DNA of 64,000 nucleotides from a virus (IMGVR_UViG_3300045988_105524), one strand, 5' to 3'; counted from the first letter of the stretch, positions 6,690 to 62,261 are shown. The notes: generated by a model not told the origin, from the sequence alone. Made by a program: numbers and translations.

Positions 6690-7058
6690 TTACATAAATT
6701 TAAAATCTTTAGTTTCGATTATGACATCAAAGTCAATCTCATCCTTATTAAAATAATCGTTGAATAGATTAAATACTGCATCATAATCTGGTACATTCAA
6801 CTCACTACTACCGATAAAAGCTAGATTGTATTTTATTACTTTTCTTTTCTCTAAATCAATATCGCACTCAAAAATCATTTTAGTAATTCCAGTTAAATAA
6901 GTACCTTCATATTTAAGCATATAATTGTCTACTTTAACATCTTTACAACCAAACGCAGCTTTTAGTATGTTATCTGAATAATCATGTATACCAATAATGT
7001 TATATATTTCATCAGGCTTACTTATTAGCTTGATGTCAACTTCACTATATAATTTCAT
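6690..7058 (-). CDS. small acidic protein, tandem paralog family
   Basis: ILKAAFGCKD motif. Confidence 0.5.
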   Translation of the reverse strand: MKLYSEVDIKLISKPDEIYNIIGIHDYSDNILKAAFGCKDVKVDNYMLKYEGTYLTGITKMIFECDIDLEKRKVIKYNLAFIGSSELNVPDYDAVFNLFNDYFNKDEIDFDVIIETKDFKFM

Positions 7059-7093
7059 TTACACTCCTTAAAAATAAGAGTAGAGCTTTAACT

Positions 7094-7732
7094 CTACCCT
7101 ACCAAATTACAATAGTATTTAACTTTTGCAAATACATCGCGGTGTTCGTATAAATCTACTGAGCATCGAACTCCTGGAAGAGCTCTACAACGAAAACTTA
7201 ACTTTTTATTTAAGTAGTCATACATAATACTATTCATATTTTCAGTGTCTTTAAATTCTATATAGTCTATGTTTGAACCTAAGTAGCGTATCTTGTAAAC
7301 CAAATCAGTAGGTACAGATACGCGGTCATACAGTTCGTATAAAGCACGCTCTCTTTTAATAAGCATTACATCTTCTTTAGTGATGAATCTTAAAAAATGA
7401 TTAGCTCGATTAAATAGCTTTCTACTACCTAAATCAGAATTAAACTGCTTAAGCAGATTACGTGTATGCTTGAGTCTAAACTCATACTGCGTCTTTTTAC
7501 CAATCTGTCTTGATACTACTCTTACTACATCATCAAAGCCGTATGCGTTTAAAAGACTTTCAAGCTGATACTTGATGTCTACGTCTTTATGATATACGAA
7601 CTTGTTTTCTTTTGCTTTAATCTCGTTCTCTAGTTCTTTTAGCTCATTCTGTAGTTGTTGCTGTCTCTCAATAAGCTCATAGATGTTATCATTATTCATA
7701 TTTATCACCTCTTTATGTAAATATTGTAACAT
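7094..7732 (-). CDS. hypothetical protein with N-terminal coiled coil (212 aa)
   Basis: ORF track; promoter and RBS upstream. Confidence 0.5.
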   Translation of the reverse strand: MLQYLHKEVINMNNDNIYELIERQQQLQNELKELENEIKAKENKFVYHKDVDIKYQLESLLNAYGFDDVVRVVSRQIGKKTQYEFRLKHTRNLLKQFNSDLGSRKLFNRANHFLRFITKEDVMLIKRERALYELYDRVSVPTDLVYKIRYLGSNIDYIEFKDTENMNSIMYDYLNKKLSFRCRALPGVRCSVDLYEHRDVFAKVKYYCNLVG

Positions 7733-52257: not shown

Positions 52258-53085
52258 TTATACTCCTTTGACCATCCTAGATTGACATAGAGCACAATAT
52301 TTCATTTCAATGCTGAGTATAAGCTTCTTAGCTTCTTCATATACAAAGTCGTTTGTAAGTTCTCTAACTATGTGTGAGTCAAATGTGCTGTTTATCCATA
52401 TTGCAAGCTCGCACATAGCGCGATAGTCGTCAACAGGTTCTATATTGAACTCTTTTAGATACGCAAGCTTATTGCATAGTGAAGTAAACATATCATTTGA
52501 AATTATGTGGTAATGAGCAAGACTCTGCAAAAGACTAACAATTTCAAAAGTGTAGTCTAAATTCTGCTCAATGACTGATACAAGCTCATCATACCCTGCT
52601 TCATTTCCTTTGCAATCAATGTATCTAACCTTATTAGCGTCTAGAAAATCTGTAATCTCTGCGCATAGCTCATCTGACTCTTCTTCAGACTGGAATCTGC
52701 CATTTGGATTGTATGGCTTATCTCTCTGTACGAATACGTTTAAGGCGCGCTGCTCTGAACTTACTTTCTTAACTAATGCCTTTAACTCTTCAGCATAGTT
52801 GAAATTATTCTTTTCTGCGTAGAATGCAGAGAGCATCAGAGGGCAGTCAGTAATAATCACATCTACATCACTAATTCTTGACATTCTGAAAAACTGTTTA
52901 CCGAAGATATAAGCCTGATTTTCAAATACTGCTTTTGAACCTTCGTACACCTTATCTTTAGCGAATTCTGTAACTAACTCTACGTTGTAACCCTTTAGCT
53001 TTAGTTTTGAAAATACATAAGCTGCGCCCGTAGACTTACCAGCACCAGGCGCACCGTAGAGATTTAATACTATAGGATGTTTCAT
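52258..53085 (-). CDS. P-loop NTPase / kinase (possible polynucleotide or nucleotide kinase)
   Basis: Walker A ..YGAPGAGKST.., ..VIITD.. Walker-B-like; N-terminal 170 aa kinase-like, C-terminal domain unknown. Confidence 0.45.
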   Translation of the reverse strand: MKHPIVLNLYGAPGAGKSTGAAYVFSKLKLKGYNVELVTEFAKDKVYEGSKAVFENQAYIFGKQFFRMSRISDVDVIITDCPLMLSAFYAEKNNFNYAEELKALVKKVSSEQRALNVFVQRDKPYNPNGRFQSEEESDELCAEITDFLDANKVRYIDCKGNEAGYDELVSVIEQNLDYTFEIVSLLQSLAHYHIISNDMFTSLCNKLAYLKEFNIEPVDDYRAMCELAIWINSTFDSHIVRELTNDFVYEEAKKLILSIEMKYCALCQSRMVKGV

Positions 53086-53114
53086 TATATCTCTCCTTTA
53101 TGTTTTTATTTAAT

Positions 53115-53150
53115 CTTAACATAAAATCAAAACAATGTAAACAAAAACAA
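53115..53150 (-). promoter_or_regulatory. sigma70-like promoter (TGTAAACA motif + A-run) for 52258..53085
   Basis: Same architecture as other promoters; -10 not verified base by base. Confidence 0.4.
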
Positions 53151-53187
53151 AAAAAAATAGATAGAAGATTAGTTCTATCTGTATTAG

Positions 53188-53263
53188 TGGTACGCCCAGC
53201 GGGACTTGAACCCGCAAAAAGTAGTTTCTAAGACTACCGTGTATGCCATTCCACCACAGGCGT
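53188..53263 (-). tRNA. type-I (76-nt, 5-nt variable loop) tRNA with anticodon TAG (reads CUA Leu codons)
   Basis: AC stem GTAGT/ACTAC loop CTTAGAA; T-arm GCGGG-TTCAAGT-CCCGC; A73. Confidence 0.55.
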
Positions 53264-53290
53264 ATATTATATTAAAATGTATATAAAAAT

Positions 53291-53315
53291 GTCTCAGAAG
53301 TTAAATCAGAATCTC
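53291..53315. repeat. C-repeat fragment (CTCAGAAGTTAAATCAGAATCTC)
   Basis: Matches core of C-repeat. Confidence 0.5.
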
Positions 53316-53566
53316 TGAAGAGCATTCAAGAGATAAAATTCTTCAAAATCAGTTAGAGACATATTATACTTGCCATCTGACATACAGATATATTCAACAT
53401 TGATTGAAGCATTAAGCTCAGGAAAAGTAAGATTAGTGTAAACTCTCTTAAAACGTCCTGACATATACTTAAATCTACCTAAGCCGTCACGTTCTATTTC
53501 TACAATAGCTCTATGACTGACGTTAGAATCAAGATATTCTGTTATCTGTTTTACTTCTACTAACAT
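53306..53566 (-). CDS. hypothetical protein (86 aa)
   Basis: ORF track. Confidence 0.4.
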   Translation of the reverse strand: MLVEVKQITEYLDSNVSHRAIVEIERDGLGRFKYMSGRFKRVYTNLTFPELNASINVEYICMSDGKYNMSLTDFEEFYLLNALQRF

Positions 53567-53587
53567 TTTAATATCTCCTTAAAATTT

Positions 53588-53671
53588 TGGTCGGAGGAGT
53601 AGGACTCGAACCTACAAGCCATAAAGCGCCGGATTTACAGTCCGGTGTCTTACCAGTTAGACTATCCCCCG
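53588..53671 (-). tRNA. tRNA-Tyr (GTA), type II
   Basis: AC stem CCGGA/TCCGG loop CTGTAAA; 13-nt variable arm. Confidence 0.7.
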
Positions 53672-53675
53672 TAAA

Positions 53676-53749
53676 TGGTGGACTGAGAGAGAATCGAACT
53701 CTCATTATACGGATGCAAGCCGTACGTTCTCCCGTTGAACTATCAGCCC
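53676..53749 (-). tRNA. tRNA-Ala (TGC)
   Basis: AC stem TACGG/CCGTA loop CTTGCAT; G3-T70 wobble in acceptor as expected for Ala. Confidence 0.7.
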
Positions 53750-53995
53750 ATAAAAATATAAGCGTAAGATATGGCATCGACTAAGTTATCTTCACAATTA
53801 CTAGTTTATGCAACTATCGCTTGATAAGAGCGATAATTCTAATTTTATTAAATCAGCCTCTTTCGAATCTTTTTAGACTTTGAGTTTTATTAGCAAAACC
53901 AAATAGACAAAGTCTGGTATCTATGTTGTTCTACATACAAGTTTATCACGTTCGTATGCAGCATAGGTATTTAATTCTCAACGCTTATATTTATT
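53750..53995. other. ~240-nt tRNA-free spacer inside tRNA cluster E with long inverted repeat (AGACTTTG...CAAAGTCT) and CGCTTGATAAGAGCG hairpin
   Basis: No tRNA fold, no credible ORF; strong secondary-structure potential. Confidence 0.3.
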
Positions 53996-54069
53996 TGGAG
54001 CCAGTGGAGAGAATCGAACTCCCAACCGATGATTACAAAACACCTGTTTTACCATTAAACTACACTGGC
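53996..54069 (-). tRNA. tRNA-Thr (TGT), second copy
   Basis: Perfect acceptor GCCAGTG/CACTGGC; AC loop TTTGTAA. Confidence 0.55.
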
Positions 54070-54076
54070 ATATTTT

Positions 54077-54152
54077 TGGAGCAGGCAAGGGGACTTGAAC
54101 CCCTAATGCTTGTTTGGAAGACAAGCGTGTTAACCAATTACACTATGCCTAC
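54077..54152 (-). tRNA. tRNA-Gly (TCC)
   Basis: AC stem CTTGT/ACAAG loop CTTCCAA. Confidence 0.7.
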
Positions 54153-54157
54153 ATATT

Positions 54158-54235
54158 TGGTGACCCATCGGAGATTCGAACTCACGGACAACCTCGATTA
54201 AAAGTCGAGTGCTCTACCAACTGAGCTAATGGGCC
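54158..54235 (-). tRNA. tRNA-Lys (TTT), T-stem with bulged T
   Basis: D-arm and AC loop CTTTTAA identical to E. coli tRNA-Lys; AC stem CTCGA/TCGAG. Confidence 0.6.
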
Positions 54236-54240
54236 ATATT

Positions 54241-54315
54241 TGGCAGTCCGTAAGGGAATCGAACCCTCAACATCCGGTCGACAGCCGGGTATTTTAACCA
54301 TTAAACTAACGGACT
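54241..54315 (-). tRNA. tRNA-Asp (GTC)
   Basis: Perfect acceptor AGTCCGT/ACGGACT; AC loop CTGTCGA; G73. Confidence 0.65.
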
Positions 54316-54318
54316 ATA

Positions 54319-54393
54319 TGGTGACGCCACTGGGACTCGAACCCAGACTTCAAGGATGAAAACCTTGTGTACTAACCTTTCTACAATGGCGCC
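54319..54393 (-). tRNA. tRNA-Glu (TTC)
   Basis: AC stem CAAGG/CCTTG loop TTTTCAT. Confidence 0.65.
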
Positions 54394-54397
54394 ATAT

Positions 54398-54474
54398 TGG
54401 CGGGTCAGGTAAGACTCGAACTTACGACCTTCCGATTAACAGTCGGATGCTCTAACCAACTGAGCTACTGACCC
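54398..54474 (-). tRNA. tRNA-Asn (GTT)
   Basis: Perfect acceptor GGGTCAG/CTGACCC; AC loop CTGTTAA; G73. Confidence 0.7.
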
Positions 54475-55202
54475 AAATCTTTGAAGCTTAATCGTTTACC
54501 ATCAAGCATTAATGAAAATTTATAACCCTCATTGATATACTCTTTTGCTTTGTCAATCATATTTTGTTTATCTAGTGTAAACTTACTTTTTATTTCTATT
54601 ATTTCATTAGAATCTGGAATATAGAAATCAGGTATCGCTATTCTAACCTTTTGTTTCTGTGTATCAAAATATTTTATTCTTAGATATTCTACTTCATAAT
54701 CTATTTTGTTATTATCAAGATATTCAGCAAAATCAAATTCGTATGAACTTCTTAAAAATACTTTCTTTTGATTCCAAGCTGTATGCCAACCTGATTTATA
54801 CTGTGTGTGCTTTTCTATCTGCTTATGTGAATGCAGTATGTGATTTGAACTAGCTTCACTGTACGTTCTTTTAGGTATATTTAAGTAGTTAAATATTTTC
54901 CCTGTTAAATTGTATGAGTTTGCATAATTAAACATCTTACTAATGTCGTTAGCTGATTTTCCTTTATTCCAATATAAATCATACAATGTATTCCGTACTC
55001 TGTCCCACTCTTCAAAAGCAAGTTCACTACCTAAACATTCTTTGTTAAATGTAAAATATTTAATCAAACTTTGCGATTGATAAAATTTAGACTTACAAGC
55101 TTTTGAACACCAACTTTTACTGTTATTCTCTACGATTTCTTTTCCACAAAATTTACAGGTAGATAATTTTTTATTACATCTCTTCGAAAGAGTGTTTTTC
55201 AA
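54465..55202 (-). CDS. putative homing endonuclease (Zn-ribbon + PD-(D/E)xK-like), expressed part from TTG start; conserved Zn-ribbon continues upstream behind in-frame TAA/TGA stops
   Basis: C-terminal ..IPDFYIPDSNEIIEIK..; upstream in-frame region encodes CICERCGKITVNRYSSGRFCSRSCANARQHSKETKAKIG homologous to 39161..40027 but is separated from any ATG by TAA (at ~55341) and TGA (at ~55432). Confidence 0.45.
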   Translation of the reverse strand: MKNTLSKRCNKKLSTCKFCGKEIVENNSKSWCSKACKSKFYQSQSLIKYFTFNKECLGSELAFEEWDRVRNTLYDLYWNKGKSANDISKMFNYANSYNLTGKIFNYLNIPKRTYSEASSNHILHSHKQIEKHTQYKSGWHTAWNQKKVFLRSSYEFDFAEYLDNNKIDYEVEYLRIKYFDTQKQKVRIAIPDFYIPDSNEIIEIKSKFTLDKQNMIDKAKEYINEGYKFSLMLDGKRLSFKDLGQ

Positions 55203-55767
55203 AGATTCACCTATTTTAGCTTTAGTCTCTTTAGAGTGTTGACGTGCATTAGCGCAACTACGTGAACAGAATCTACCAGAGCTATAGCGGTTAACTGTAA
55301 TTTTTCCGCATCTTTCGCAAATACAAATAATAATACTCCATAAACTATGAGTTAAGTATAAACTTTACCAATCATAGTAGTCATCATACGATAATTCTTC
55401 AAGCAATCTTTCGTCTTCTTCCATTTCGTCGTAGCAGCTTCTACATACTCAGCCTCGACCTTTATATTTGATGCTGTAAGTATAGCAAGAACTACCTTCA
55501 CGAATAGTTCTACTGCACATTGCGCATTTTCTATCAGCTTTTACTCTGACTTGTTTTAAAATGTCAAGCATTGTTTACACCTTTTTTTTTGATAAAAGCA
55601 TAGACGTAAATATAGTTTCAAGCAGAATGTATTTGATGAAGATACGTTCTGACTTGAGCGTATGTTATTCGAATAAGCGATGTTGTTCTACGTGCAAGTT
55701 CATCAAATTCACACGCAGTATCTTGATTCTCAGACGCCTATGCTTAATGTAATTACCATTATGACGT

Positions 55768-55890
55768 TGCGCTAAGCTCATTCCTGGGTAAGCTTAGGTC
55801 ACTCTCGTCAGTTTAAAAACTGACTACCCTCCAGAGCAAATTTACCAGGCAATTACACGGTCGTCAACCGCATTTTGTATATACCATTAT
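55768..55890 (-). ncRNA. solo copy of the IS605/TnpB right-end (omegaRNA-scaffold-like) ~115-nt repeat, directly downstream of a consensus promoter
   Basis: ~90% identical to 58846..58962 which overlaps the 3' end of tnpB; TTTACA-N17-TATAAT at 55886..55916 positions the TSS at the start of the repeat. Confidence 0.45.
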
Positions 55891-55916
55891 ATCACAATTT
55901 TTATTTACTGTAAACC
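55886..55916 (-). promoter_or_regulatory. sigma70-like promoter TTTACA-N17-TATAAT
   Basis: Perfect consensus read on minus strand. Confidence 0.6.
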
Positions 55917-55919
55917 TTA

Positions 55920-56234
55920 TTAAGCGCAAAAGTAAAAAATATTTTCGTCCCAGTCAACATCGATTAATTCAAAATCATTTATCTGTTTACCGTTATGCTC
56001 AAATACTACTTGCTCTACATCATCGAATAATTCAATATCTGAAAATACATACGGCTCTACTTCCTCTTCAGCGCCTGCATGTAGAATTAATGTGTCACCC
56101 TTGACTTCAACTGCGAAAACATTGGCTACTAAACCCTCTTGCCATATCTCTTCATCAGTAAGCGCCATAGTAGGCTCAATCTCTTTTTCTTTTATGTGAT
56201 TCAAGAAATTTTCGTCAAAATAACTGATATGCAT
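55920..56234 (-). CDS. hypothetical protein, paralog of 19310..19648
   Basis: Shared motif pattern; follows the SbcD-like gene. Confidence 0.5.
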   Translation of the reverse strand: MHISYFDENFLNHIKEKEIEPTMALTDEEIWQEGLVANVFAVEVKGDTLILHAGAEEEVEPYVFSDIELFDDVEQVVFEHNGKQINDFELIDVDWDENIFYFCA

Positions 56235-56254
56235 ATTTAGTCCTCCTTTCTTGA

Positions 56255-57238
56255 TTATTCGCTTATTTTCTTAAATAAGTCTACTTTGTCACTGTAGTTG
56301 TCTTGCAACCAAGTCATAAAGTCACTTTCAAATTTTTCATCTGATTCTTCTATATCTTCATTAGGTAATTCTAATGATACAGCAAGCGCCTTTTTCTTTA
56401 ACTCACTGAATTTTTCATCATCTATTTTATTTACATCACCCGTGTATGTTATTTTATAGATGTTGTTTTTTACTTCAATATCACTTATATCATCAGTAGT
56501 GATTTTCTCTGTATACGGAGTATCTATATGCTGACGAGTAATCTTTTTTGTTAGTGTATCAAACCATATAATTCCAGTATCGCATTTCGTTGCTGTAGGG
56601 TTTATAATTGAACCTACAGAGAATGTCTTAGTCTTACCTACTTTATATTCTTTAAACTCATGTACGTGCCCGATAAACGCTAAGTCAAAATGTTTTATAA
56701 ACTCATCAGAAATATCAAAAGCAATATTAACATTAAACTGATTCATATATGTTTCAGTAGTACCGTGCGCTATGAGTACGTTATATTTCTTTTTATCCAG
56801 TCTCTTTAGTACTTGCTCTTCAAATTCTTTTTTCTGCTCAGTGCTAAAAGTCCAAGGCACAAAATGAAATACTACATCATCATACTGAATGTAGTTTGTA
56901 TCAAAATCAATACAAAAATCAGTTAAAGCTGAAACAGAACTAGTGTTATGCTTAGCTTGTTGTAGATTAAAGTCGTGATTACCTAGAATAATTGAAACAT
57001 CACTACAGTTATCAACTAACGTATCGTACATCTCATTAAATTTATTAATCGCGATTATACTTGGGTTAGGTACGTGAAATACATCACCACAGATAATCAC
57101 TACGTCAGCTTTTTTACACTCTTCTACATACTCATCTAGCTTATCATAAAGAATAGCTTCGTATTTATTTAAGCCATCATCAGTATTTCTGTATAACGTT
57201 TGCCCTATATGTAAATCTGATATAACTGCTACTTTCAA
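56255..57238 (-). CDS. SbcD/Mre11-like DNA repair exonuclease (metallophosphoesterase)
   Basis: ..SDLHIG.., ..CGDVFH.., ..GNHD.., ..GHVH.. motifs; 327 aa. Confidence 0.65.
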   Translation of the reverse strand: MKVAVISDLHIGQTLYRNTDDGLNKYEAILYDKLDEYVEECKKADVVIICGDVFHVPNPSIIAINKFNEMYDTLVDNCSDVSIILGNHDFNLQQAKHNTSSVSALTDFCIDFDTNYIQYDDVVFHFVPWTFSTEQKKEFEEQVLKRLDKKKYNVLIAHGTTETYMNQFNVNIAFDISDEFIKHFDLAFIGHVHEFKEYKVGKTKTFSVGSIINPTATKCDTGIIWFDTLTKKITRQHIDTPYTEKITTDDISDIEVKNNIYKITYTGDVNKIDDEKFSELKKKALAVSLELPNEDIEESDEKFESDFMTWLQDNYSDKVDLFKKISE

Positions 57239-58035
57239 TCTTGTTCTCCTCTTATAATGTTATGCTCACGTAATGCTTTCAGCCATTTTATTTTATGACT
57301 TGCTGTCGCGTTATGCCAGAGAGGTTTCTTTATCTTATACTTGCTGAAATCTACTTTTTCAGGTTTACGTACTTCAATCTGAGTATACTTTGATAAATCA
57401 TTGTTTAGAATGCCTGATTCGTATAAGAAACAGCTTTCAAACCTTTCATCTAAAAAGCCTGAACGATGGCTGCGCTTCTTACTCCAGAAATCTCTTAGAA
57501 ATTCAGAATTGTAGAAATCACATAATCTCTTTTCATATAAATCAAAATCAAAGTCTTTATATAAACGTTGTCCACTCATCGTGTGTGTATATTTCCACTC
57601 TTCATCTGAGAACGGCATAAAAATCTTTTCTAACTCAGGTCTTACAGCGTTAGAGCTTTTATAACTCAAAGTAGATGTAACAAAAGCAGAGTTAGGCAGA
57701 TTAAATACATCTTCTATACCTTCAGATAAAATTACATCTTCTTCAGTAAATAAACCCTCTTTATAATACCAAGGTAATAAGATATTCAAACCCATATGAT
57801 ATGAGTCAACAAAATCATTATCAATAACATCTTTCTTAAACTTATCAACTATAATCTGCCCATCTACTATTTCTGCTGGTATGTTTAATTCTTCTGCTAG
57901 TCTTTTCATCTCATCGACTTTATTGCCAATACGAGATTCATTAACTATTGTATACTTACATTTTAACTCAGGTAGATTTTCAAATTGAGCTTCAAGCTGA
58001 ATAACGTCGTTTGCTAAAATAATAATATTATTCAT
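57235..58035 (-). CDS. hypothetical protein (266 aa)
   Basis: ORF track. Confidence 0.45.
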   Translation of the reverse strand: MNNIIILANDVIQLEAQFENLPELKCKYTIVNESRIGNKVDEMKRLAEELNIPAEIVDGQIIVDKFKKDVIDNDFVDSYHMGLNILLPWYYKEGLFTEEDVILSEGIEDVFNLPNSAFVTSTLSYKSSNAVRPELEKIFMPFSDEEWKYTHTMSGQRLYKDFDFDLYEKRLCDFYNSEFLRDFWSKKRSHRSGFLDERFESCFLYESGILNNDLSKYTQIEVRKPEKVDFSKYKIKKPLWHNATASHKIKWLKALREHNIIRGEQD

Positions 58036-58046
58036 ATACTAAACCT

Positions 58047-58481
58047 CTACTGGAATTCTACATCTTCGCCTAAGTTAAATACATCTTCACCATTAGCGAA
58101 TGCAATTACGTCGTCAAATGTTCTTAGACAATTCTTAGCACTACCTGCTAGCATTACATTCATTACTTTTCTTGGTGAATTATCGAAGAGTATAACTGGA
58201 ATATTATTCGCTAGCGCTACGCCAATCTCAACTAAAACTCCTTTATCAGAAAAGCTAATATCAGCGAATAGCGCTTTACATTGAGTTATACCGTCAATAT
58301 CGCCTTTAAAAATCTCTCTAGCTTTTTCTAGTGTGAGTGGACCACCTGAACCTGTGCCTACGTCATATTTCGGCTCAAACAAAGTAAAGCCTTTGTCTTT
58401 AAGTATTTTTGTAATCGTTTCGTAGTTTTCAATCTCTTTGGAACTCCACCATCCACTTCCAAAGTAAAAATCTTTCTTCAT
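58047..58481 (-). CDS. nucleoside 2-deoxyribosyltransferase-like protein
   Basis: 144 aa; N-terminal ..FYFGSGWWS.. and ..LVEIGVA.. resemble the NDT family fold motifs. Confidence 0.45.
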   Translation of the reverse strand: MKKDFYFGSGWWSSKEIENYETITKILKDKGFTLFEPKYDVGTGSGGPLTLEKAREIFKGDIDGITQCKALFADISFSDKGVLVEIGVALANNIPVILFDNSPRKVMNVMLAGSAKNCLRTFDDVIAFANGEDVFNLGEDVEFQ

Positions 58482-58496
58482 AATTAATCTTCCTCT

Positions 58497-58679
58497 CTAT
58501 TCAAAAACAAGCAAATACTGCTCACTACTGCCAAAATCAATGTAGTAAGCATCATTGCCACATTTATATGTTTTCACTTTTCCTATCTGCTTTGAGATTA
58601 AATAGTCTTTAAACTCTTCAAACGAGTTAAATACTTCTGTACGCAGAACTTCCCTATCTGTGACTAGCTGTACTGTCAT
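58497..58679 (-). CDS. hypothetical protein (60 aa)
   Basis: ORF track; ATGA-coupled to upstream small ORF. Confidence 0.4.
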   Translation of the reverse strand: MTVQLVTDREVLRTEVFNSFEEFKDYLISKQIGKVKTYKCGNDAYYIDFGSSEQYLLVFE

Positions 58680-58831
58680 CGTGATAATATCCTATCTATA
58701 AAAGGTTTAAATACTCCAGCAGGTTGCTTTGTGTCTATTCCTATAAGCGTATCACTAACTCTCATATCAGCTAGATAGAAGAATGTTAGGATAATAGCAC
58801 AACCTACTATGATTGCAATTATTTTCTTCAT
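58678..58831 (-). CDS. small secreted/lipoprotein-like peptide (51 aa)
   Basis: AGGAGAG RBS; MKKIIAIIVGCAII signal-like N-terminus; lies immediately after the IS right-end repeat. Confidence 0.35.
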
Positions 58832-58845
58832 GACTCTCCTTATGA

Positions 58846-58962
58846 CGCTGCGCTAAGCGCATTCCTGGGTAAGCTTAGGTCACTCTCGTCAGTTTAAAAA
58901 CTGGCTACCCTCCAGAGCAAATTTACCAGGCGAGAATACGGTCGTCAACCGCATCTTGTATT
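58846..58962 (-). ncRNA. IS605-family right end / putative omegaRNA scaffold region overlapping the 3' end of tnpB
   Basis: Begins inside the last codons of tnpB (…NTRCG*) as is typical for TnpB omegaRNAs; duplicated at 55768..55890. Confidence 0.4.
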
Positions 58963-60051
58963 AACTAATTCATTTATGCCAACAGTCAAAATATTCACTG
59001 CAGCATTTACGTCTCTATCGTGATGCGTACCACAATCAGGACAAACCCATTCTCTAACATCGAGTGAGTTAACAATCTCCTTGTGCTTAGTACCGCATGA
59101 TGAACATAATGTGCTTGTTGGCTTAAATCTGTTTATTTTATGAAATACTTTTCCATACCACTTACATTTATACTCTAACATGCTTGTAAACATTTACCAG
59201 CTAGCGTCTTGAATAGCATAAGCAAGTCTATGATTTTTACTCATACCTTTTACGTTCAAATCTTCAACAGCAATAAAATCATATTTCGTTACAAGTTGCG
59301 TAGTGAGCTTGTTTAGAGCGTCTTTACGTTTATTCGCAATATGAGTCTTATATTTAGCAACTTTCTTCTTATATGCTTGATAATTACTCGCATTCTCATA
59401 ATCAATACTAACTTTCTTCAACTTGTCTCTCATTTTAGAAAGCTTTCTATCCATAGATGCAATCTTATTACGATTACTCTTAGCATAATTAAAGGGAGGA
59501 ATCTTGATTCCGTTACTTAGCGTGATGAACGACTCTAAACCTAAGTCTATACCAGCATTCTCTCCAGTTTGAGTCTTTTGCGTTACGTATTTTTCAACTG
59601 TCAAAGAAGCGTAAACTTTTCCCGATGGCTCGATGATGACTGTAGCAGACGTAAGCTTTAAAAATTCAGGCATATGTCGAGTTTTAATTTTAACTAGTCC
59701 AATTTTTGGTATTTTTAAGTTTTTATCTTGAATAGCGACTTTCCCATTATTAGATGGCACTCTAAAGCTAATCTGACTATGTCTAGACTTGAATTTCGGA
59801 TAACCATACTTTTGCTTATACTTACCTTTACAACCTTTAAAGAAGTTAGTAAATGCGCGTTGTAAGTCTATTCTAGATTGTTGCAGCGCTACTGCGCTAG
59901 AATCATTTAACCAATCAAATTCTTCTTTCAGAGTTTTTATCTCAGCTTCCATTTCTTTAGTATTCATTAATTTTGAGCTCGACTTGTACAACTCATTTTG
60001 AATAGAAAGAAGATGATTATAAACAAAACGCGAGCAACCAGCGAATTGCAT
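58945..60051 (-). pseudogene. tnpB: IS605-family tnpB (OrfB) interrupted by a single in-frame TAA (59194..59196)
   Basis: Track ORFs 59194..60051 and 58945..59193 are in the same frame separated by one TAA; the C-terminal piece carries CxxC...CxxC Zn-finger and RuvC-III ..DRDVNAAVNI.. Confidence 0.6.
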
Positions 60052-60124
60052 AATTTGTTGTAGTTGTCTTTTATTCGGCTTAATTCTTATTCTGTATTTA
60101 GCTTTTACTAGTTGCGGCGCGGTA

Positions 60125-60243
60125 TCACCTCCTTATATAGTTTTAAATACTGAGTAGTTAGCATCACATAATATGCTTTTAGCAATCGATGTTTCTGCTC
60201 TATTCGCAGCATAAATATTGAAAATCACTCTGTTATTTCTCGC
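60125..60243 (-). pseudogene. duplicated C-terminal gene fragment (…RNNRVIFNIYAANRAETSIAKSILCDANYSVFKTI) in frame after the TAA stop of 60244..60501
   Basis: ~85% nt identity to 60500..60615 (C-terminus of 60511..60966); the TAA aligns with a CAA (Gln) codon in the paralog. Confidence 0.5.
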
Positions 60244-60501
60244 TTATACTGCAGTGCCTAATGTATCTGCAACATGTTTTATAAAATCGAATATCTGTAT
60301 TACTGTAGGCATATTATATCCTAGCGTTGCAAAAATAAAGCAAACTAAGAAATATGCTAACATAATATTCAAGCTGTCTTTGAATGTCCAGCCAAATAAC
60401 TTAAGTACTAATGAAATGCAAAGCATAATCATTAGATTAACTGGAGCAGCTAGAATAAATTGTATAAAATTCTGTACAAATGTAAGTAAGTACTCTGTCA
60501 T
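60244..60501 (-). CDS. small membrane protein (85 aa)
   Basis: Two TM helices. Confidence 0.45.
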   Translation of the reverse strand: MTEYLLTFVQNFIQFILAAPVNLMIMLCISLVLKLFGWTFKDSLNIMLAYFLVCFIFATLGYNMPTVIQIFDFIKHVADTLGTAV

Positions 60502-60510
60502 TGTCTCTCC

Positions 60511-60966
60511 TTAAATTGTTTCAAATACTGAGTAGTTAGCGTCGCCTAGAATAGACTTAGCTATTGATGTTTCAGCTCTATTTGCAGCGTATATATTAAA
60601 AATCACTCTATCATTCTTTGCTTGTACTGCTGTGTATGTTAATTCAGCATTTCTTAATGCTATTTCAGTTTCATCAGCTAGCGTACCTTTAATGATTGCG
60701 TGAATGTTCCATAGTCTATCTTTCTTTTTCTTTTCAATGAGATATTTAGCTAAGTATACTCCAGTAAAATTCGTAATGATTGTTACTATAATTACTACTG
60801 GAAAACTATAATCATTAAGTAGCTTTACTACAACTACATTTACTGTAAAAGATAACGTATTCATAAATGCTGCTTGTAGTTTACTGCCTGATACAGTAGA
60901 AATACTTTTCAATGTAGCTACGATTACGTTAATAAATTGCAATGTAATAAATAATACTATACCCAT
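60511..60966 (-). CDS. membrane protein (151 aa) with soluble C-terminal domain
   Basis: N-terminal hydrophobic segments; C-terminal region duplicated at 60125..60243. Confidence 0.45.
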   Translation of the reverse strand: MGIVLFITLQFINVIVATLKSISTVSGSKLQAAFMNTLSFTVNVVVVKLLNDYSFPVVIIVTIITNFTGVYLAKYLIEKKKKDRLWNIHAIIKGTLADETEIALRNAELTYTAVQAKNDRVIFNIYAANRAETSIAKSILGDANYSVFETI

Positions 60967-60990
60967 ATATGCATCTCCTTTCTATACATA

Positions 60991-61050
60991 CAGAGTATAG
61001 CTCTCAGATATATCTCAGAGACTCCAGAATCGTCTCTCGTAAACTTTTAT
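60991..61050. repeat. B-repeat copy
   Basis: TATAGCTCTCAGATATATCTCAGAGACTCCAGAATCGTCTCTCGTAAAC. Confidence 0.8.
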
Positions 61051-61085
61051 GCTACTTTAATATAATATATCATTTAGCAGTAAAA

Positions 61086-61574
61086 TTAATACTGGAGAGT
61101 AAATCTGAGCATAATTTCAAAAGCAATATCTTCTACAGAAACATCTGTAGTATCAATTATAATATTGCATAATTCTTTATAACCTCTGAATTCTTCTTTA
61201 TCGTGCTCTATTCTCTGTATTCTGTCTGGTATTCTTCTTCTTAATTCTTCTTCTGCGCAAGTTAGTCCTACGACAAAACAATCTTCTCTATACTTGCCTA
61301 GATTTTCTACACCAGCTTTATCAAGAGTTAGCATATCACCCTTTTCAAATTGCTGTAGAGTTATCCAGTAATAATTACCATTGAAATAAGTTTCTGTAAT
61401 TATGTTATTATCTTTTACAAACTCATCTACAAATGTATGACCTGTTTCATTCTCAAATCTCTTAGGTCTAGTAGTATAAGATTGTATAAGAGTTAAGCCA
61501 TAGAGTTCAGTTAACTTATCTGCAACAGTTGATTTGCCTGTGCCGCTAGGACCAATCAATACAATTTTCTTCAT
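61086..61574 (-). CDS. gmk: guanylate kinase
   Basis: ..IGPSGTGKST.. P-loop and ..TTRPKR..E..G..Y.FV.. guanylate kinase signature. Confidence 0.75.
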   Translation of the reverse strand: MKKIVLIGPSGTGKSTVADKLTELYGLTLIQSYTTRPKRFENETGHTFVDEFVKDNNIITETYFNGNYYWITLQQFEKGDMLTLDKAGVENLGKYREDCFVVGLTCAEEELRRRIPDRIQRIEHDKEEFRGYKELCNIIIDTTDVSVEDIAFEIMLRFTLQY

Positions 61575-61580
61575 AGTGTT

Positions 61581-61745
61581 TTAGAAATATGCACTTATCT
61601 CTTTTCGTGCATTTTTCTTTGCTCTCTTTCTATCATATTTCTTGCTTTCGTGAAAACCACTCTTAGGCATCACGTAGTCAGTTGAACGTGCTTTATGCAT
61701 TTTTAAAATCTGTTCTTTTGTTATTGTCATCGTTTGCTTTTTCAT
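61581..61745 (-). CDS. small basic protein (54 aa)
   Basis: AAGAGGTG RBS; Lys/Arg-rich; not in ORF track. Confidence 0.3.
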   Translation of the reverse strand: MKKQTMTITKEQILKMHKARSTDYVMPKSGFHESKKYDRKRAKKNARKEISAYF

Positions 61746-61817
61746 ATTACACCTCTTTTATTTCATTATATCAAACAAAATTGTGTAAGTAAACAAGCAA
61801 TAGAAAAAGATGCTGCA

Positions 61818-62261
61818 TTAAGCAGCATCTTCTGATGAAACAGGTCCAGTGTACTTTGAATTATCACTGAAGGCTAATATAAACAAACCAATAACTGGTA
61901 GTAAAACACAACATAACGCTACAAGGCCTGATTTATGTAGAGTCTTAGAAAATAGATAAGTTGTTATAACTGACGATACGGTCGCTATCGTTCCGAAAAT
62001 GAAATATAAAGCTAGACTCTTGAATACAAAAGCTGAAAGCAATACGCCGATTGATGCAAATAATGGAATAAACATCGTATACCAATTATTAAAAGTATGC
62101 ATTGACATTATGTATGTATTATAAAGAGGCACTATGCTCTTCCATCCTGCAACGTTATACAACCTTGAAAATATGCGCCACATACAAATAATATTACATA
62201 TGCTGAATATACCTAGCATCGTGTAAAACGTGGCATCGTTTACTGTATAAGCATTATACAT
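61818..62261 (-). CDS. polytopic membrane protein (147 aa)
   Basis: Four hydrophobic helices. Confidence 0.45.
   Translation of the reverse strand: MYNAYTVNDATFYTMLGIFSICNIICMWRIFSRLYNVAGWKSIVPLYNTYIMSMHTFNNWYTMFIPLFASIGVLLSAFVFKSLALYFIFGTIATVSSVITTYLFSKTLHKSGLVALCCVLLPVIGLFILAFSDNSKYTGPVSSEDAA

What the first reader, a model, noticed from the sequence alone, without database searches (positions are those of the whole stretch)
55768..60135. IS605-family tnpB with an in-frame TAA, and a second solo copy of its 3' omegaRNA-like end under a consensus phage promoter
The 58945..60051 region encodes a TnpB (RuvC-like plus Zn-finger) whose two track ORFs are in one frame, split by a single TAA at 59194..59196. 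The 115 nt overlapping its 3' end (58846..58962) is where TnpB omegaRNA scaffolds reside. That sequence recurs at ~90% identity at 55768..55890 with no adjacent tnpB. Immediately upstream of the solo copy lies a perfect TTTACA-N17-TATAAT promoter (55886..55916), whose predicted TSS coincides with the repeat start. The two copies diverge precisely after ...GCGTCATAA, the expected IS right end, so each would carry a different ~16-20-nt guide-like 3' extension. A phage that keeps a promoter-driven, tnpB-less omegaRNA-like transcript would be a novel domestication, for example a guide for a trans-acting TnpB, or a regulatory RNA. Alternatively both are decaying IS remnants.
Basis: partly seen in the sequence, partly recalled or inferred. 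Interest (0 to 1): 0.7.

Follow-up and report, generated by a model that had tools for sequence, protein, structure and literature searches.

The report
Gene-less TnpB guide-RNA module in phage promoter
A roughly 125-base piece of a phage-borne IS605/TnpB element, carrying only the guide-RNA (omegaRNA) scaffold, sits exactly at the start site of an older phage promoter that heads a tRNA operon; it is probably a selfish guide-only element that needs a TnpB nuclease made elsewhere, and the neighbouring tnpB in this genome is dead.

Summary
Two copies of a 122-nt sequence exist, at 58840-58961 and 55759-55880, and they are 93% identical. One abuts a tnpB gene. The other follows a TTTACA-N17-TATAAT promoter.

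The tnpB is a pseudogene with two defects: GTG>GCG at the start codon and TCA>TAA in frame. A 99%-identical intact gene occupies the same locus in sister phages.

The repeat behaves as this clade's omegaRNA scaffold. A covariance model hits only tnpB 3' ends plus the solo copies. Compensatory changes occur in 21 of 34 pairs. There is an ISDra2-like pseudoknot complementarity.

The promoter was not acquired for the repeat. It is one of 14 phage promoters of one class in the window. Sister phages carry it joined directly to the tRNA-operon leader, so the solo copy is a ~128-nt insertion polymorphism at the start site.

The solo copy occurs with intact, dead or absent neighbouring tnpB. It varies far less than its flanks (5/121 vs 46/182 variable columns). 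It recombines with the tnpB-linked copy.

The best reading is a PATE-like, guide-only selfish module that homes using TnpB in trans and is probably orphaned in this genome. This is a new variant of a known kind, of moderate interest.

The parts
58945..60120 (-). tnpB pseudogene of the IS200/IS605 family (ISDra2-like TnpB). It has two defects: the start codon GTG is mutated to GCG at 60118-60120, and an in-frame TAA lies at 59194-59196 where intact relatives have TCA (Ser).
   Evidence: Pfam domains. Translation. Alignment with the intact 99%-identical P0001. L002 has GTG at the start. PDB hits to ISDra2 TnpB at E about 1e-67.
60128..60134 (-). AAGGAGG ribosome-binding site of tnpB
   Evidence: Read directly from the sequence.
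58840..58961 (-). tnpB-linked omegaRNA scaffold and transposon right end ('type 1'). It begins 17 nt before the tnpB stop codon. The candidate pseudoknot motifs are TGACG at 58947-58943 and CGTCA at 58847-58843.
   Evidence: Covariance-model hit of 149 bits. It is 100% identical over 120 nt to the right end of L048, whose TnpB is only 85% identical. Structure and covariation.
58820..58839 (-). Guide-like 3' flank of the tnpB-linked scaffold (GGAGAGTCATGAAGAAAATA). It is also the RBS and start of the 51-aa gene. Sister phages have an extra ~70 nt here that the window has lost.
55758..55885 (-). The ~128-nt inserted mini-element (the solo copy), defined against empty-site phages. Its boundaries are ambiguous by up to about 9 nt, because ATAAT[G/A]GTA is repeated at both junctions.
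   Evidence: Alignments with empty sites in L061, L064, L146, L148 and L149.
55759..55880 (-). Solo omegaRNA-like scaffold. All helices and both candidate pseudoknot motifs are retained (TGACG 55866-55862, CGTCA 55766-55762). It is a mosaic: the 5' 30 nt are the solo 'type 2' and the rest is the tnpB-linked 'type 1'. It carries 4 private substitutions; one breaks a pair in the 3' hairpin and one repairs a pair in the central hairpin.
   Evidence: Covariance-model hit of 146 bits. Mosaic table. Pair table.
55738..55757 (-). Guide-like 3' flank of the solo copy (GGTAATTACATTAAGCATAG), which is also the first bases of the native tRNA-operon leader. It is unique in the window.
   Evidence: It matches the element-free alleles of sister phages.
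55886..55914 (-). Ancestral phage promoter TTTACA-N17-(TG)ATATAAT that heads the leader and tRNA array. Its predicted start site falls at the 5' end of the solo scaffold.
   Evidence: It is one of 14 minus-strand promoters of this class (15 matches against 0.94 expected). It is also present at empty sites.
55560..55757 (-). Conserved non-coding leader between the promoter/solo element and the downstream genes and tRNA array. It is transcribed together with the solo scaffold (inferred).
   Evidence: Alignment A6. In L061, L063 and L059 it runs straight into a tRNA gene.
60129..60256 (-). Segment upstream of tnpB that duplicates the 3' end of the 151-aa gene (60507-60634, 80% identical). No transposon left end could be recognised here.

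Best explanation
The solo copy is a protein-less derivative of a phage-borne IS605-family tnpB element. It consists of only the ~120-nt omegaRNA scaffold and right end. It lies between the -10 box and the transcribed leader of a pre-existing phage promoter that heads a tRNA operon.

Inferred consequences: the scaffold is transcribed from its first nucleotide, and its 3' extension (the guide) is the first ~16-20 nt of the native leader, which is its own insertion site. When a cognate TnpB is available, the ribonucleoprotein would cut element-free alleles of related phages next to the shared GATATAAT motif. The TnpB could come from 3 kb away, as in sister phages L002 and L151, or from a co-infecting relative. 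Recombinational repair from the filled allele would then copy the ~128-nt element in, or restore it. This is TnpB homing driven by a guide-only element that parasitises TnpB in trans.

In the window's own genome the neighbouring tnpB has lost its start codon and carries a nonsense codon. Both omegaRNAs are therefore probably orphaned, unless another TnpB is encoded in the unseen ~128 kb or supplied by a co-infecting phage.

Shown here: homology, scaffold structure, insertion polymorphism, ancestral promoter, pseudogene status, excess conservation and mosaicism.

Inferred only: transcription, TnpB binding, cleavage and homing.
For: 1. The repeat is the tnpB-associated RNA module. It directly follows tnpB in every relative examined: L002, L046, L048, L050, L054, L057 and L151. 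A covariance model built from it hits only tnpB 3' ends in 42-51%-identical TnpB loci, plus the solo copies. On that alignment 91% of cells pair, against at most 48% when partners are slid, and 21 of 34 pairs show changes on both sides.

2. A 5' (U)GACG motif is complementary to the 3'-terminal CGUC(A) just before the guide. The changes seen in distant members keep the pairing. Position and scaffold length resemble the ISDra2 omegaRNA, which has a 116-nt scaffold and a pseudoknot between -5..-3 and -103..-105 (PMC10097598). The TnpB is a full-length homologue of ISDra2 TnpB.

3. The empty sites L061, L064, L146, L148 and L149 keep the same promoter joined to the leader. L061/L064 encode an identical neighbouring 103-aa protein to the filled L060, L062, L063 and L065, so gain or loss was recent.

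4. The right flank of the L151 solo copy is identical for more than 50 nt to the L061 empty site after TATAAT, and L151 carries an intact 391-aa tnpB. A natural cutter-target pair therefore exists.

5. Both insertion sites, solo and tnpB locus, share GATATAAT immediately 5' of the guide-matching sequence.

6. Across five phage backgrounds the solo element has 5/121 variable columns. The leader has 46/182 and the upstream 300 nt has 44/306 (Fisher p = 5e-7 and 2e-3).

7. The solo copies in the window and in L151 are mosaics of the two scaffold types, so the tnpB-linked and solo copies exchange sequence.

8. In L046 the same scaffold has its own TTTACA-N17-TATAAT promoter at the same distance, between the tnpB stop codon and the scaffold. 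This scaffold is therefore probably made as a primary transcript.

9. PATEs that encode omegaRNAs needing TnpB in trans are documented in bacteria. TnpA-independent homing between co-resident replicons has also been discussed.
Against: - No transcript, binding or cleavage data exist.
- The window's tnpB is dead, and no other tnpB lies within the 64 kb. In this genome the element may therefore do nothing.
- The window's solo copy has 4 private substitutions in ~95 nt, one of which breaks a conserved pair. That rate is about neutral.
- No left end, and no intact TnpA, was found for this IS lineage. How a right-end-only piece was generated or inserted is therefore unexplained. The 9-nt junction repeat is not typical of IS200/IS605 transposition.
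- Low variability could reflect recent spread by ordinary recombination rather than TnpB-driven homing.
- The covariation alignment was fitted to the model, which inflates pairing counts.
- The candidate pseudoknot core is invariant, so its support is complementarity plus mostly one-sided (wobble-compatible) changes.
Confidence: 0.55

Rival explanations
1. Inert IS debris. A full-length element once inserted after the promoter's -10 box. An internal deletion removed everything but the right end, for example by recombination between the phage -10 box and an IS-internal omegaRNA promoter like the one in L046. The remnant is transcribed only as a passenger of the tRNA-operon leader and has no activity.
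For: - The window's tnpB is a fixed pseudogene.
- The flank next to its right end has suffered a 70-nt deletion.
- The window's solo copy carries 4 private substitutions, including one broken pair.
- Close relatives without the element exist, so it is dispensable.
- These elements are often associated with deletions and duplications.
- The L046 internal promoter TATAATAGTATAAAATGCGG resembles the solo left junction TATAATAGTATATACAAAATGCGG, which offers a deletion route.
Against: - The remnant coincides exactly with the complete conserved scaffold, with no truncation or indels in seven backgrounds.
- It varies 3-6 times less than either flank.
- The changes that do occur are structure-compatible, for example G.U to A-U in L063.
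- It persists in phages that lack the neighbouring tnpB and is repeatedly overwritten by conversion, which implies ongoing turnover rather than decay.
Confidence: 0.25
2. Domesticated function for the phage. One version: a trans-acting guide that lets a TnpB destroy or convert competing phages at the head of their tRNA operon, an RNA-guided analogue of T4 SegB-type marker exclusion. Another version: a structured 5' leader that stabilises or regulates the tRNA-operon transcript independently of TnpB.
For: - Placement at +1 of a strong early-type promoter at the head of a tRNA array.
- Excess conservation.
- A perfect guide-target match between L151 and the L061 class of phages.
- The first ~10 nt after the -10 box are hypervariable, with indels, among empty alleles. 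This would fit escape from cleavage.
- A homing-endonuclease-like gene lies just downstream.
Against: - Presence/absence polymorphism among near-identical phages argues against an essential role.
- The guide is simply the element's own flank, as in any selfish IS; no match to other phage or host targets was found.
- A TnpB-independent stabiliser would not need to keep every helix and the candidate pseudoknot.
- No nuclease-dead or dedicated TnpB partner is adjacent.
Confidence: 0.15
3. The conserved block acts mainly as single-stranded DNA, as the right-end hairpin and cleavage site for a Y1 TnpA transposase. On this view the solo copy is a true PATE/MITE moved by TnpA, with RNA function secondary.
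For: - Hairpins lie about 13 nt from the left junction and about 10 nt from the right junction, a geometry like IS608 ends (the IS608 comparison is from the analyst's own knowledge).
- A clean filled/empty pair exists, L151 against L061.
- A Y1 tnpA fragment lies next to tnpB in L046.
Against: - The two terminal hairpins are unrelated in sequence, unlike the left and right ends of IS200/IS605 elements.
- The only tnpA found is N-terminally truncated: it matches Pfam positions 44-120 of 121.
- The conserved long-range helices and multi-stem fold go beyond what a TnpA site requires.
- No left end was recognisable in any full-length copy.
Confidence: 0.05

Closest known systems
IS200/IS605-family tnpB elements with a 3' omegaRNA (ISDra2 type; tnpB-only IS1341-like arrangement)
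   Same: The TnpB has HTH_OrfB_IS605, OrfB_IS605 (RuvC) and zinc-ribbon TNB domains and is a full-length homologue of ISDra2 TnpB. A ~120-nt structured scaffold sits at the gene's 3' end and right end, with a candidate pseudoknot next to the guide. The guide is the flanking DNA.
   Different: - The lineage was found only in ~155-192-kb phage contigs; the best match in bacterial genomes is 41%.
- The scaffold lies almost entirely downstream of the ORF.
- No recognisable left end and no intact TnpA were found.
- The copies sit inside local duplications and deletions.
- The window's copy is a pseudogene.
PATEs (palindrome-associated transposable elements): protein-less IS200/IS605 derivatives that often encode omegaRNAs used by TnpB in trans (Meers et al. 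preprint 10.1101/2023.03.14.532601)
   Same: It has no coding capacity. It retains the right end and omegaRNA. It would depend on a TnpB encoded elsewhere. It shows precise presence/absence polymorphism.
   Different: PATEs carry both a left and a right end. This element has only the right-end/omegaRNA block, with no left-end homology. It is in a virulent-type large phage, not a bacterial chromosome. It sits exactly at a promoter start site, so it needs neither its own promoter nor 5' processing.
Free-standing homing endonucleases of T4-like phages, such as SegB in the tRNA gene region (as reviewed in PMC13565253)
   Same: The proposed behaviour is the same: cleavage of the element-free allele in a co-infecting relative, followed by copying through recombination. 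The location next to a tRNA gene cluster is also shared.
   Different: Here specificity would come from an RNA guide. The mobile unit encodes no nuclease at all.
TldR and other domesticated TnpB-guide pairs (PMC10705468)
   Same: A TnpB-type guide RNA that is no longer part of an autonomous transposon.
   Different: TldR loci pair a nuclease-dead TnpB with an adjacent guide that targets a host promoter. Here no such partner is adjacent, and the intact relatives keep the RuvC D-E-D residues (invariant D192, E286, D370). The guide matches only its own insertion site.

Membership tests
TnpB (IS200/IS605 RNA-guided nuclease) | HTH/WED, RuvC (OrfB_IS605) and zinc-ribbon TNB domains | tested here: met
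   Pfam PF12323 (3.5e-14), PF01385 (8e-20) and PF07282 (3.7e-26). ISDra2 TnpB structures 8h1j and 8bf8 match at E about 1e-67.
TnpB (IS200/IS605 RNA-guided nuclease) | Uninterrupted ORF with a start codon and the RuvC D-E-D triad on one polypeptide | tested here: not met
   In the window GTG>GCG at 60118-60120 and TCA>TAA at 59194-59196 separate E286 from D370. Intact versions exist in sister phages (P0001 in L002, and L151).
TnpB omegaRNA | Encoded at the 3' end of tnpB and running to the transposon right end, followed by a flank-derived guide | tested here: met
   Met for 58840-58961 and for all relatives. The solo copy is homologous over the whole block.
TnpB omegaRNA | Conserved secondary structure supported by covariation | tested here: met
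   RNAalifold gives 34 pairs. On 20 distinct sequences 91% of cells pair, against at most 48% in slid controls, and 21 pairs change on both sides. Caveat: the alignment was fitted to the model.
TnpB omegaRNA | Pseudoknot between the nucleotides just 5' of the guide and a 5' region of the scaffold, as in ISDra2 and Cas12 guides | tested here: inconclusive
   The complementarity (U)GACG(C) / (G)CGUC(A) is found in 18 of the 19 sequences where both motifs could be located (one of those has a mismatch; L044:8785 has no 5' motif). Changes are wobble-compatible, and one member (L006) has a compensated extension. The core is invariant, so covariation support is weak. The position matches ISDra2.
TnpB omegaRNA | Match to a curated RNA family | tested here: not met
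   Rfam 15 gave only tRNAs at gathering score and nothing credible at E<=10 in either copy. This is weak evidence, because omegaRNAs are poorly represented in Rfam.
TnpB omegaRNA | Binds TnpB and directs TAM-dependent DNA cleavage | not testable with these tools
   Needs biochemistry or an in vivo interference assay.
PATE / MITE of IS200/IS605 | Both a left end and a right end with related subterminal hairpins, and no ORF | tested here: not met
   It has no ORF. Only the right-end block is present, the 5' and 3' hairpins are unrelated in sequence, and there is no similarity to regions upstream of any tnpB.
PATE / MITE of IS200/IS605 | Precise presence/absence polymorphism next to a conserved target motif (TAM) | tested here: met
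   Filled and empty alleles exist in near-identical phages. GATATAAT precedes the guide-matching sequence at both the solo and the tnpB loci. The exact boundary is ambiguous, and a third site (L048) does not clearly share the motif.
Sigma-70-type phage promoter driving the solo copy | Consensus -35/-10 with 17-nt spacing that belongs to the phage rather than to the element | tested here: met
   It scores 11/12 with a TG extension. It is one of 14 same-strand sites (15 found against 0.94 expected). It is retained at empty sites. Actual transcription was not tested.
Domesticated TnpB guide (TldR-like) | A dedicated, usually nuclease-dead, TnpB partner and a guide that targets a gene other than the element's own site | tested here: not met
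   The only tnpB in the window is a pseudogene of a nuclease-competent type. The guides match only their own flanks.

The most novel reading that the evidence does not exclude
The ~128-nt element is an autonomous guide-only gene drive in phages: an omegaRNA that has shed its nuclease, hijacked a strong phage promoter by inserting at its start site, and spreads between co-infecting phages by borrowing TnpB in trans. As a by-product it would give its carrier an RNA-guided weapon against relatives at the head of their tRNA operon. The hypervariable bases just after the -10 box in empty alleles would then be escape mutations. If the true TAM is the shared GATATAAT motif, which resembles the phage's extended -10 element, the element could systematically target start sites.
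Probability: 0.3. Interest if true: 0.8.

Novelty: new variant of a known kind. Interest (0 to 1): 0.5.

Why it matters
If the solo RNA is active, it would be a natural case of a TnpB guide separated from its nuclease and expressed from a captured promoter in a virus. That is a minimal selfish element of about 125 nt, and a plausible step between transposon-bound omegaRNAs and free-standing guide loci. It would also extend RNA-guided homing from bacterial chromosomes and plasmids to competition between co-infecting phages. On the practical side, this clade has a compact scaffold lying almost wholly outside the ORF, and natural filled/empty allele pairs (L151 against L061) make the idea directly testable. 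If the RNA is inactive, the locus is still a clean example of how IS605 remnants settle in phage promoters.

Tried and rejected
- Public phage records: no near match, and only short distant hits to Lak megaphages and Lactobacillus phage transposases. The phage is uncultured and its host is unknown.
- Exact-pattern scans for the scaffold core: nothing in IMG/VR and nothing in representative bacterial/archaeal genomes. Six metagenome loci were found, of which L053 was a chance GC-rich match.
- TnpB profile scan of genomes: at most 41% identity, so no host clue and no bacterial source for this lineage.
- Rfam: no omegaRNA-type match.
- Guide-target search: both guide-like flanks are unique in the window, and the leader sequence is absent from IMG/VR.
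- Left end: no shared sequence upstream of tnpB among relatives beyond ~20 nt at the RBS. The 128 nt upstream in the window is a duplicate of the 151-aa gene's 3' end, not a left end.
- Junction co-variation: the G/A base seemed to co-vary at the two junction repeats, hinting at a target-site duplication. This was rejected because L151 has A on the left and G on the right.
- The idea that the promoter came in with the element was rejected, because empty sites keep it.
- A second intact tnpB in the same genome: none in the window. One look-up of a 46%-identical family (P0083) led to an unrelated contig. The remaining ~128 kb of the genome could not be read.

Full report
**What is in the sequence**

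The window is AT-rich (33% GC). In this region it is transcribed on the minus strand, and it carries 26 tRNA genes. It is identical over the 9 kb compared (window 53000-62000) to a 191.7-kb ENA metagenome contig (L001). No close relative exists in public phage records.

The copies at 58840-58961 and 55759-55880 are 122 nt long, ungapped and 93.4% identical. There are no further copies in the window.

The gene upstream of the first copy is a TnpB. It has Pfam HTH_OrfB_IS605, OrfB_IS605 and Cas12f1-like_TNB domains and matches ISDra2 TnpB structures over its full length at E about 1e-67.

**The tnpB is a pseudogene here**

An in-frame TAA lies at 59194-59196, where a 99%-identical intact homologue (P0001, 391 aa) has Ser (TCA). 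The start codon, GTG in sister contig L002, is GCG in the window (60118-60120), so the first canonical start is 23 codons downstream.

The same split ORFs occur on at least six contigs (P0031, P0017), so this is a fixed lesion and not a sequencing error. Intact copies occupy the same locus in sister phages L002 and L151.

**The repeat is this clade's omegaRNA scaffold and right end**

- It directly follows tnpB in every relative fetched, at several different genomic loci: L002, L046, L048, L050, L054, L057 and L151.
- It is 100% identical over 120 nt between the window and L048, although their TnpB proteins are only 85% identical.
- RNAalifold on ten variants gives a 5' hairpin, a multi-stem domain closed by a long-range helix, and a 3' hairpin.
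- A covariance model built from these variants found matches only at the 3' ends of tnpB genes in IMG/VR phage loci whose TnpBs are 42-51% identical, plus the solo copies.
- On that alignment 91% of cells pair, against at most 48% with slid partners. Twenty-one of 34 pairs change on both sides. The alignment was fitted to the model, which inflates these counts.
- The invariant 5' motif (U)GACG is complementary to the invariant CGUC(A) at the 3' end, just before the flank. Distant members show GACGC/GCGUC, GGCGC/GUGUC and GACGAGA/UUUCGUC.
- The position and the ~120-nt length parallel the ISDra2 omegaRNA, which has a 116-nt functional scaffold and a pseudoknot between -5..-3 and -103..-105 (PMC10097598).
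- Rfam has no matching family.

The solo copy keeps the entire block, including both candidate pseudoknot motifs, and scores 146 bits against 149 for the tnpB-linked copy.

**The promoter is ancestral and the solo copy is an insertion**

TTTACA-N17-(TG)ATATAAT at 55914..55886 is the best promoter match in 9 kb. It is one of 14 same-strand sites of one class in the window (15 matches against 0.94 expected). Several of these sites precede tRNA clusters.

Contigs L060-L065 all encode the same 103-aa upstream neighbour protein. L060, L062, L063 and L065 have the element. L061 and L064 instead read ...TGTGATATAAT|GATAATTACATTAAGCATAGGCG..., which is the promoter joined directly to the leader. L146, L148 and L149 are also empty.

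Relative to the empty sites, the window carries about 128 extra bases (55885-55758) between the -10 box and the leader. The boundaries are ambiguous because ATAAT[G/A]GTA occurs at both junctions.

In empty phages the leader runs about 170 nt into a tRNA gene. In the window an extra ~1.1-kb cassette with a 245-aa gene lies between them.

**Distribution and evolution**

| State of the neighbouring tnpB | Contigs with the solo element |
|---|---|
| Intact | L002, L151, L152 |
| Dead | window |
| Absent at that locus | L060, L062, L063 (85-aa gene directly followed by the 51-aa gene) |

Across five backgrounds the element has 5/121 variable columns. The leader has 46/182 and the upstream 300 nt has 44/306 (p = 5e-7 and 2e-3). 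The element is therefore either selected or younger than its flanks because it has spread.

The window's solo copy is a mosaic. Its first ~30 nt match the common solo 'type 2'. The next ~85 nt match the tnpB-linked 'type 1' at 12 of 12 diagnostic sites. It also has four private changes. The L151 solo copy has a type-1-like 3' hairpin. The two kinds of copy therefore exchange sequence.

The right flank of the L151 solo copy equals the L061 empty site for more than 50 nt after TATAAT. A phage with an intact TnpB and this guide thus has a perfect natural target in a sister phage.

Empty alleles differ by indels in the ~10 nt after the -10 box. This fits escape from cleavage, but it does not prove it.

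Both the solo site and the tnpB site have GATATAAT immediately 5' of the guide-matching sequence. The true TAM could be a TGAT-like or a TATAA-like part of this motif.

**Mechanism proposed**

The best-supported reading is a guide-only, PATE-like derivative of the phage's IS605-family element. It would be expressed from a captured start site and be able to home, or be retained, only with TnpB supplied in trans. In the window's genome it is probably orphaned.

PATEs with omegaRNAs used in trans are already described in bacteria. TnpA-independent homing between co-resident replicons has been discussed.

How a right-end-only piece arose remains open. One route is deletion between the phage -10 box and an IS-internal omegaRNA promoter. 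L046 has exactly such a promoter, TTTACA-N17-TATAAT, followed by AGTATAAAATGCGG, close to the solo junction TATAATAGTATATACAAAATGCGG.

No left end and no intact TnpA were found. The only tnpA seen (L046) lacks its N-terminus.

**Rivals**

- Inert debris (0.25). It fits the dead tnpB and the private substitutions. It does not fit the intact boundaries or the excess conservation.
- Domesticated weapon or leader (0.15). It fits the placement. Dispensability and a guide that matches only its own site weigh against it.
- A TnpA-moved ssDNA element (0.05). It lacks a left end.

**Limits**

Only 64 kb of about 192 kb could be read, so a second tnpB in this genome cannot be excluded. The host is unknown, and the closest bacterial TnpBs are at most 41% identical. 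Nothing here shows transcription or activity.

**Verdict**

- Observation: confirmed.
- Novelty: a new variant of a known kind, namely a protein-less omegaRNA element in a phage, at a promoter start site and without a left end.
- Interest: moderate.

Noticed in passing
window 60129-60256 vs 60507-60634; L002 2811-2881 vs window 60317-60236: The tnpB element sits inside local duplications. The 128 nt upstream of tnpB copy the 3' end of the 151-aa gene (80% identical, including NYSVFKTI* against NYSVFETI*). In sister phages (L002, L054, L057) ~70-75 nt after the right end copy the 3' end of the 85-aa gene. The window has lost that second segment by a deletion between short ATAA repeats. This looks like recombinational insertion and repair rather than clean transposition.
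   Followed up: partly
window, minus strand: 61793, 55914, 49498, 45127, 41490, 40740, 39154, 36975, 30842, 27862, 26895, 24269, 22982, 16552 (-35 start positions): Fourteen promoters share the form (T-rich)-TG-TTTACA-N17-(TG)nTATAAT on the coding strand (15 matches against 0.94 expected by chance). Many have TGATATAAT, which contains the GATATAAT motif found at both IS target sites.
   Followed up: partly
window 54465-55571 (minus): A ~1.1-kb cassette lies between the conserved leader and tRNA-Asn. It holds a 245-aa protein with weak DUF7487 and TnsA-like endonuclease matches, plus small zinc-ribbon-like ORFs. It is absent from L059, L061 and L063, where the leader runs straight into the tRNA. 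It may be a free-standing homing-endonuclease-type insertion next to the tRNA array.
   Followed up: partly
window 55560-55757, with a partial paralogue at 53923-53988: The ~170-nt leader after the promoter is conserved across all relatives. A 62-nt stretch of it recurs at 73% identity between two tRNA genes. There is no Rfam match and its function is unknown; it may be a tRNA-derived remnant.
   Followed up: no
L061 1338-2455; L046 9681-11330 (same 189.8-kb contig, ENA ERZ27248734 k141_380154): One sister phage carries a degenerate, split tnpB of another family between the guanylate-kinase-like gene and the 151-aa gene. At another locus it has an N-terminally truncated Y1 tnpA followed by an intact 388-aa tnpB, in place of the ~900 bp that lie at window 6830-7727. 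That phage lacks the solo element.
   Followed up: partly
Empty sites: L061 6340-6360, L146 4845-4865, L148 3915-3935, L149 830-850: The ~10 nt immediately after the -10 box differ by indels among element-free phages (GATAATTAC, ATAATTAC, ATAAAAATAC, AAATAATACAG), while the surrounding sequence is conserved. This is where a TAM-proximal seed would lie.
   Followed up: partly
window 58948..58920 and 55867..55839 (minus): The invariant TTGACG of the scaffold (the candidate pseudoknot motif) also scores as a -35 box with a TG-extended TAAATT -10 inside both copies. This is probably coincidental.
   Followed up: no
L046 4372-7683 and L048 3569-6049: The phage gyrase B-like gene carries an intein (Intein_splicing or PT-HINT hits) of different size in different relatives. 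This is another sign of heavy mobile-element traffic in this phage group.
   Followed up: no
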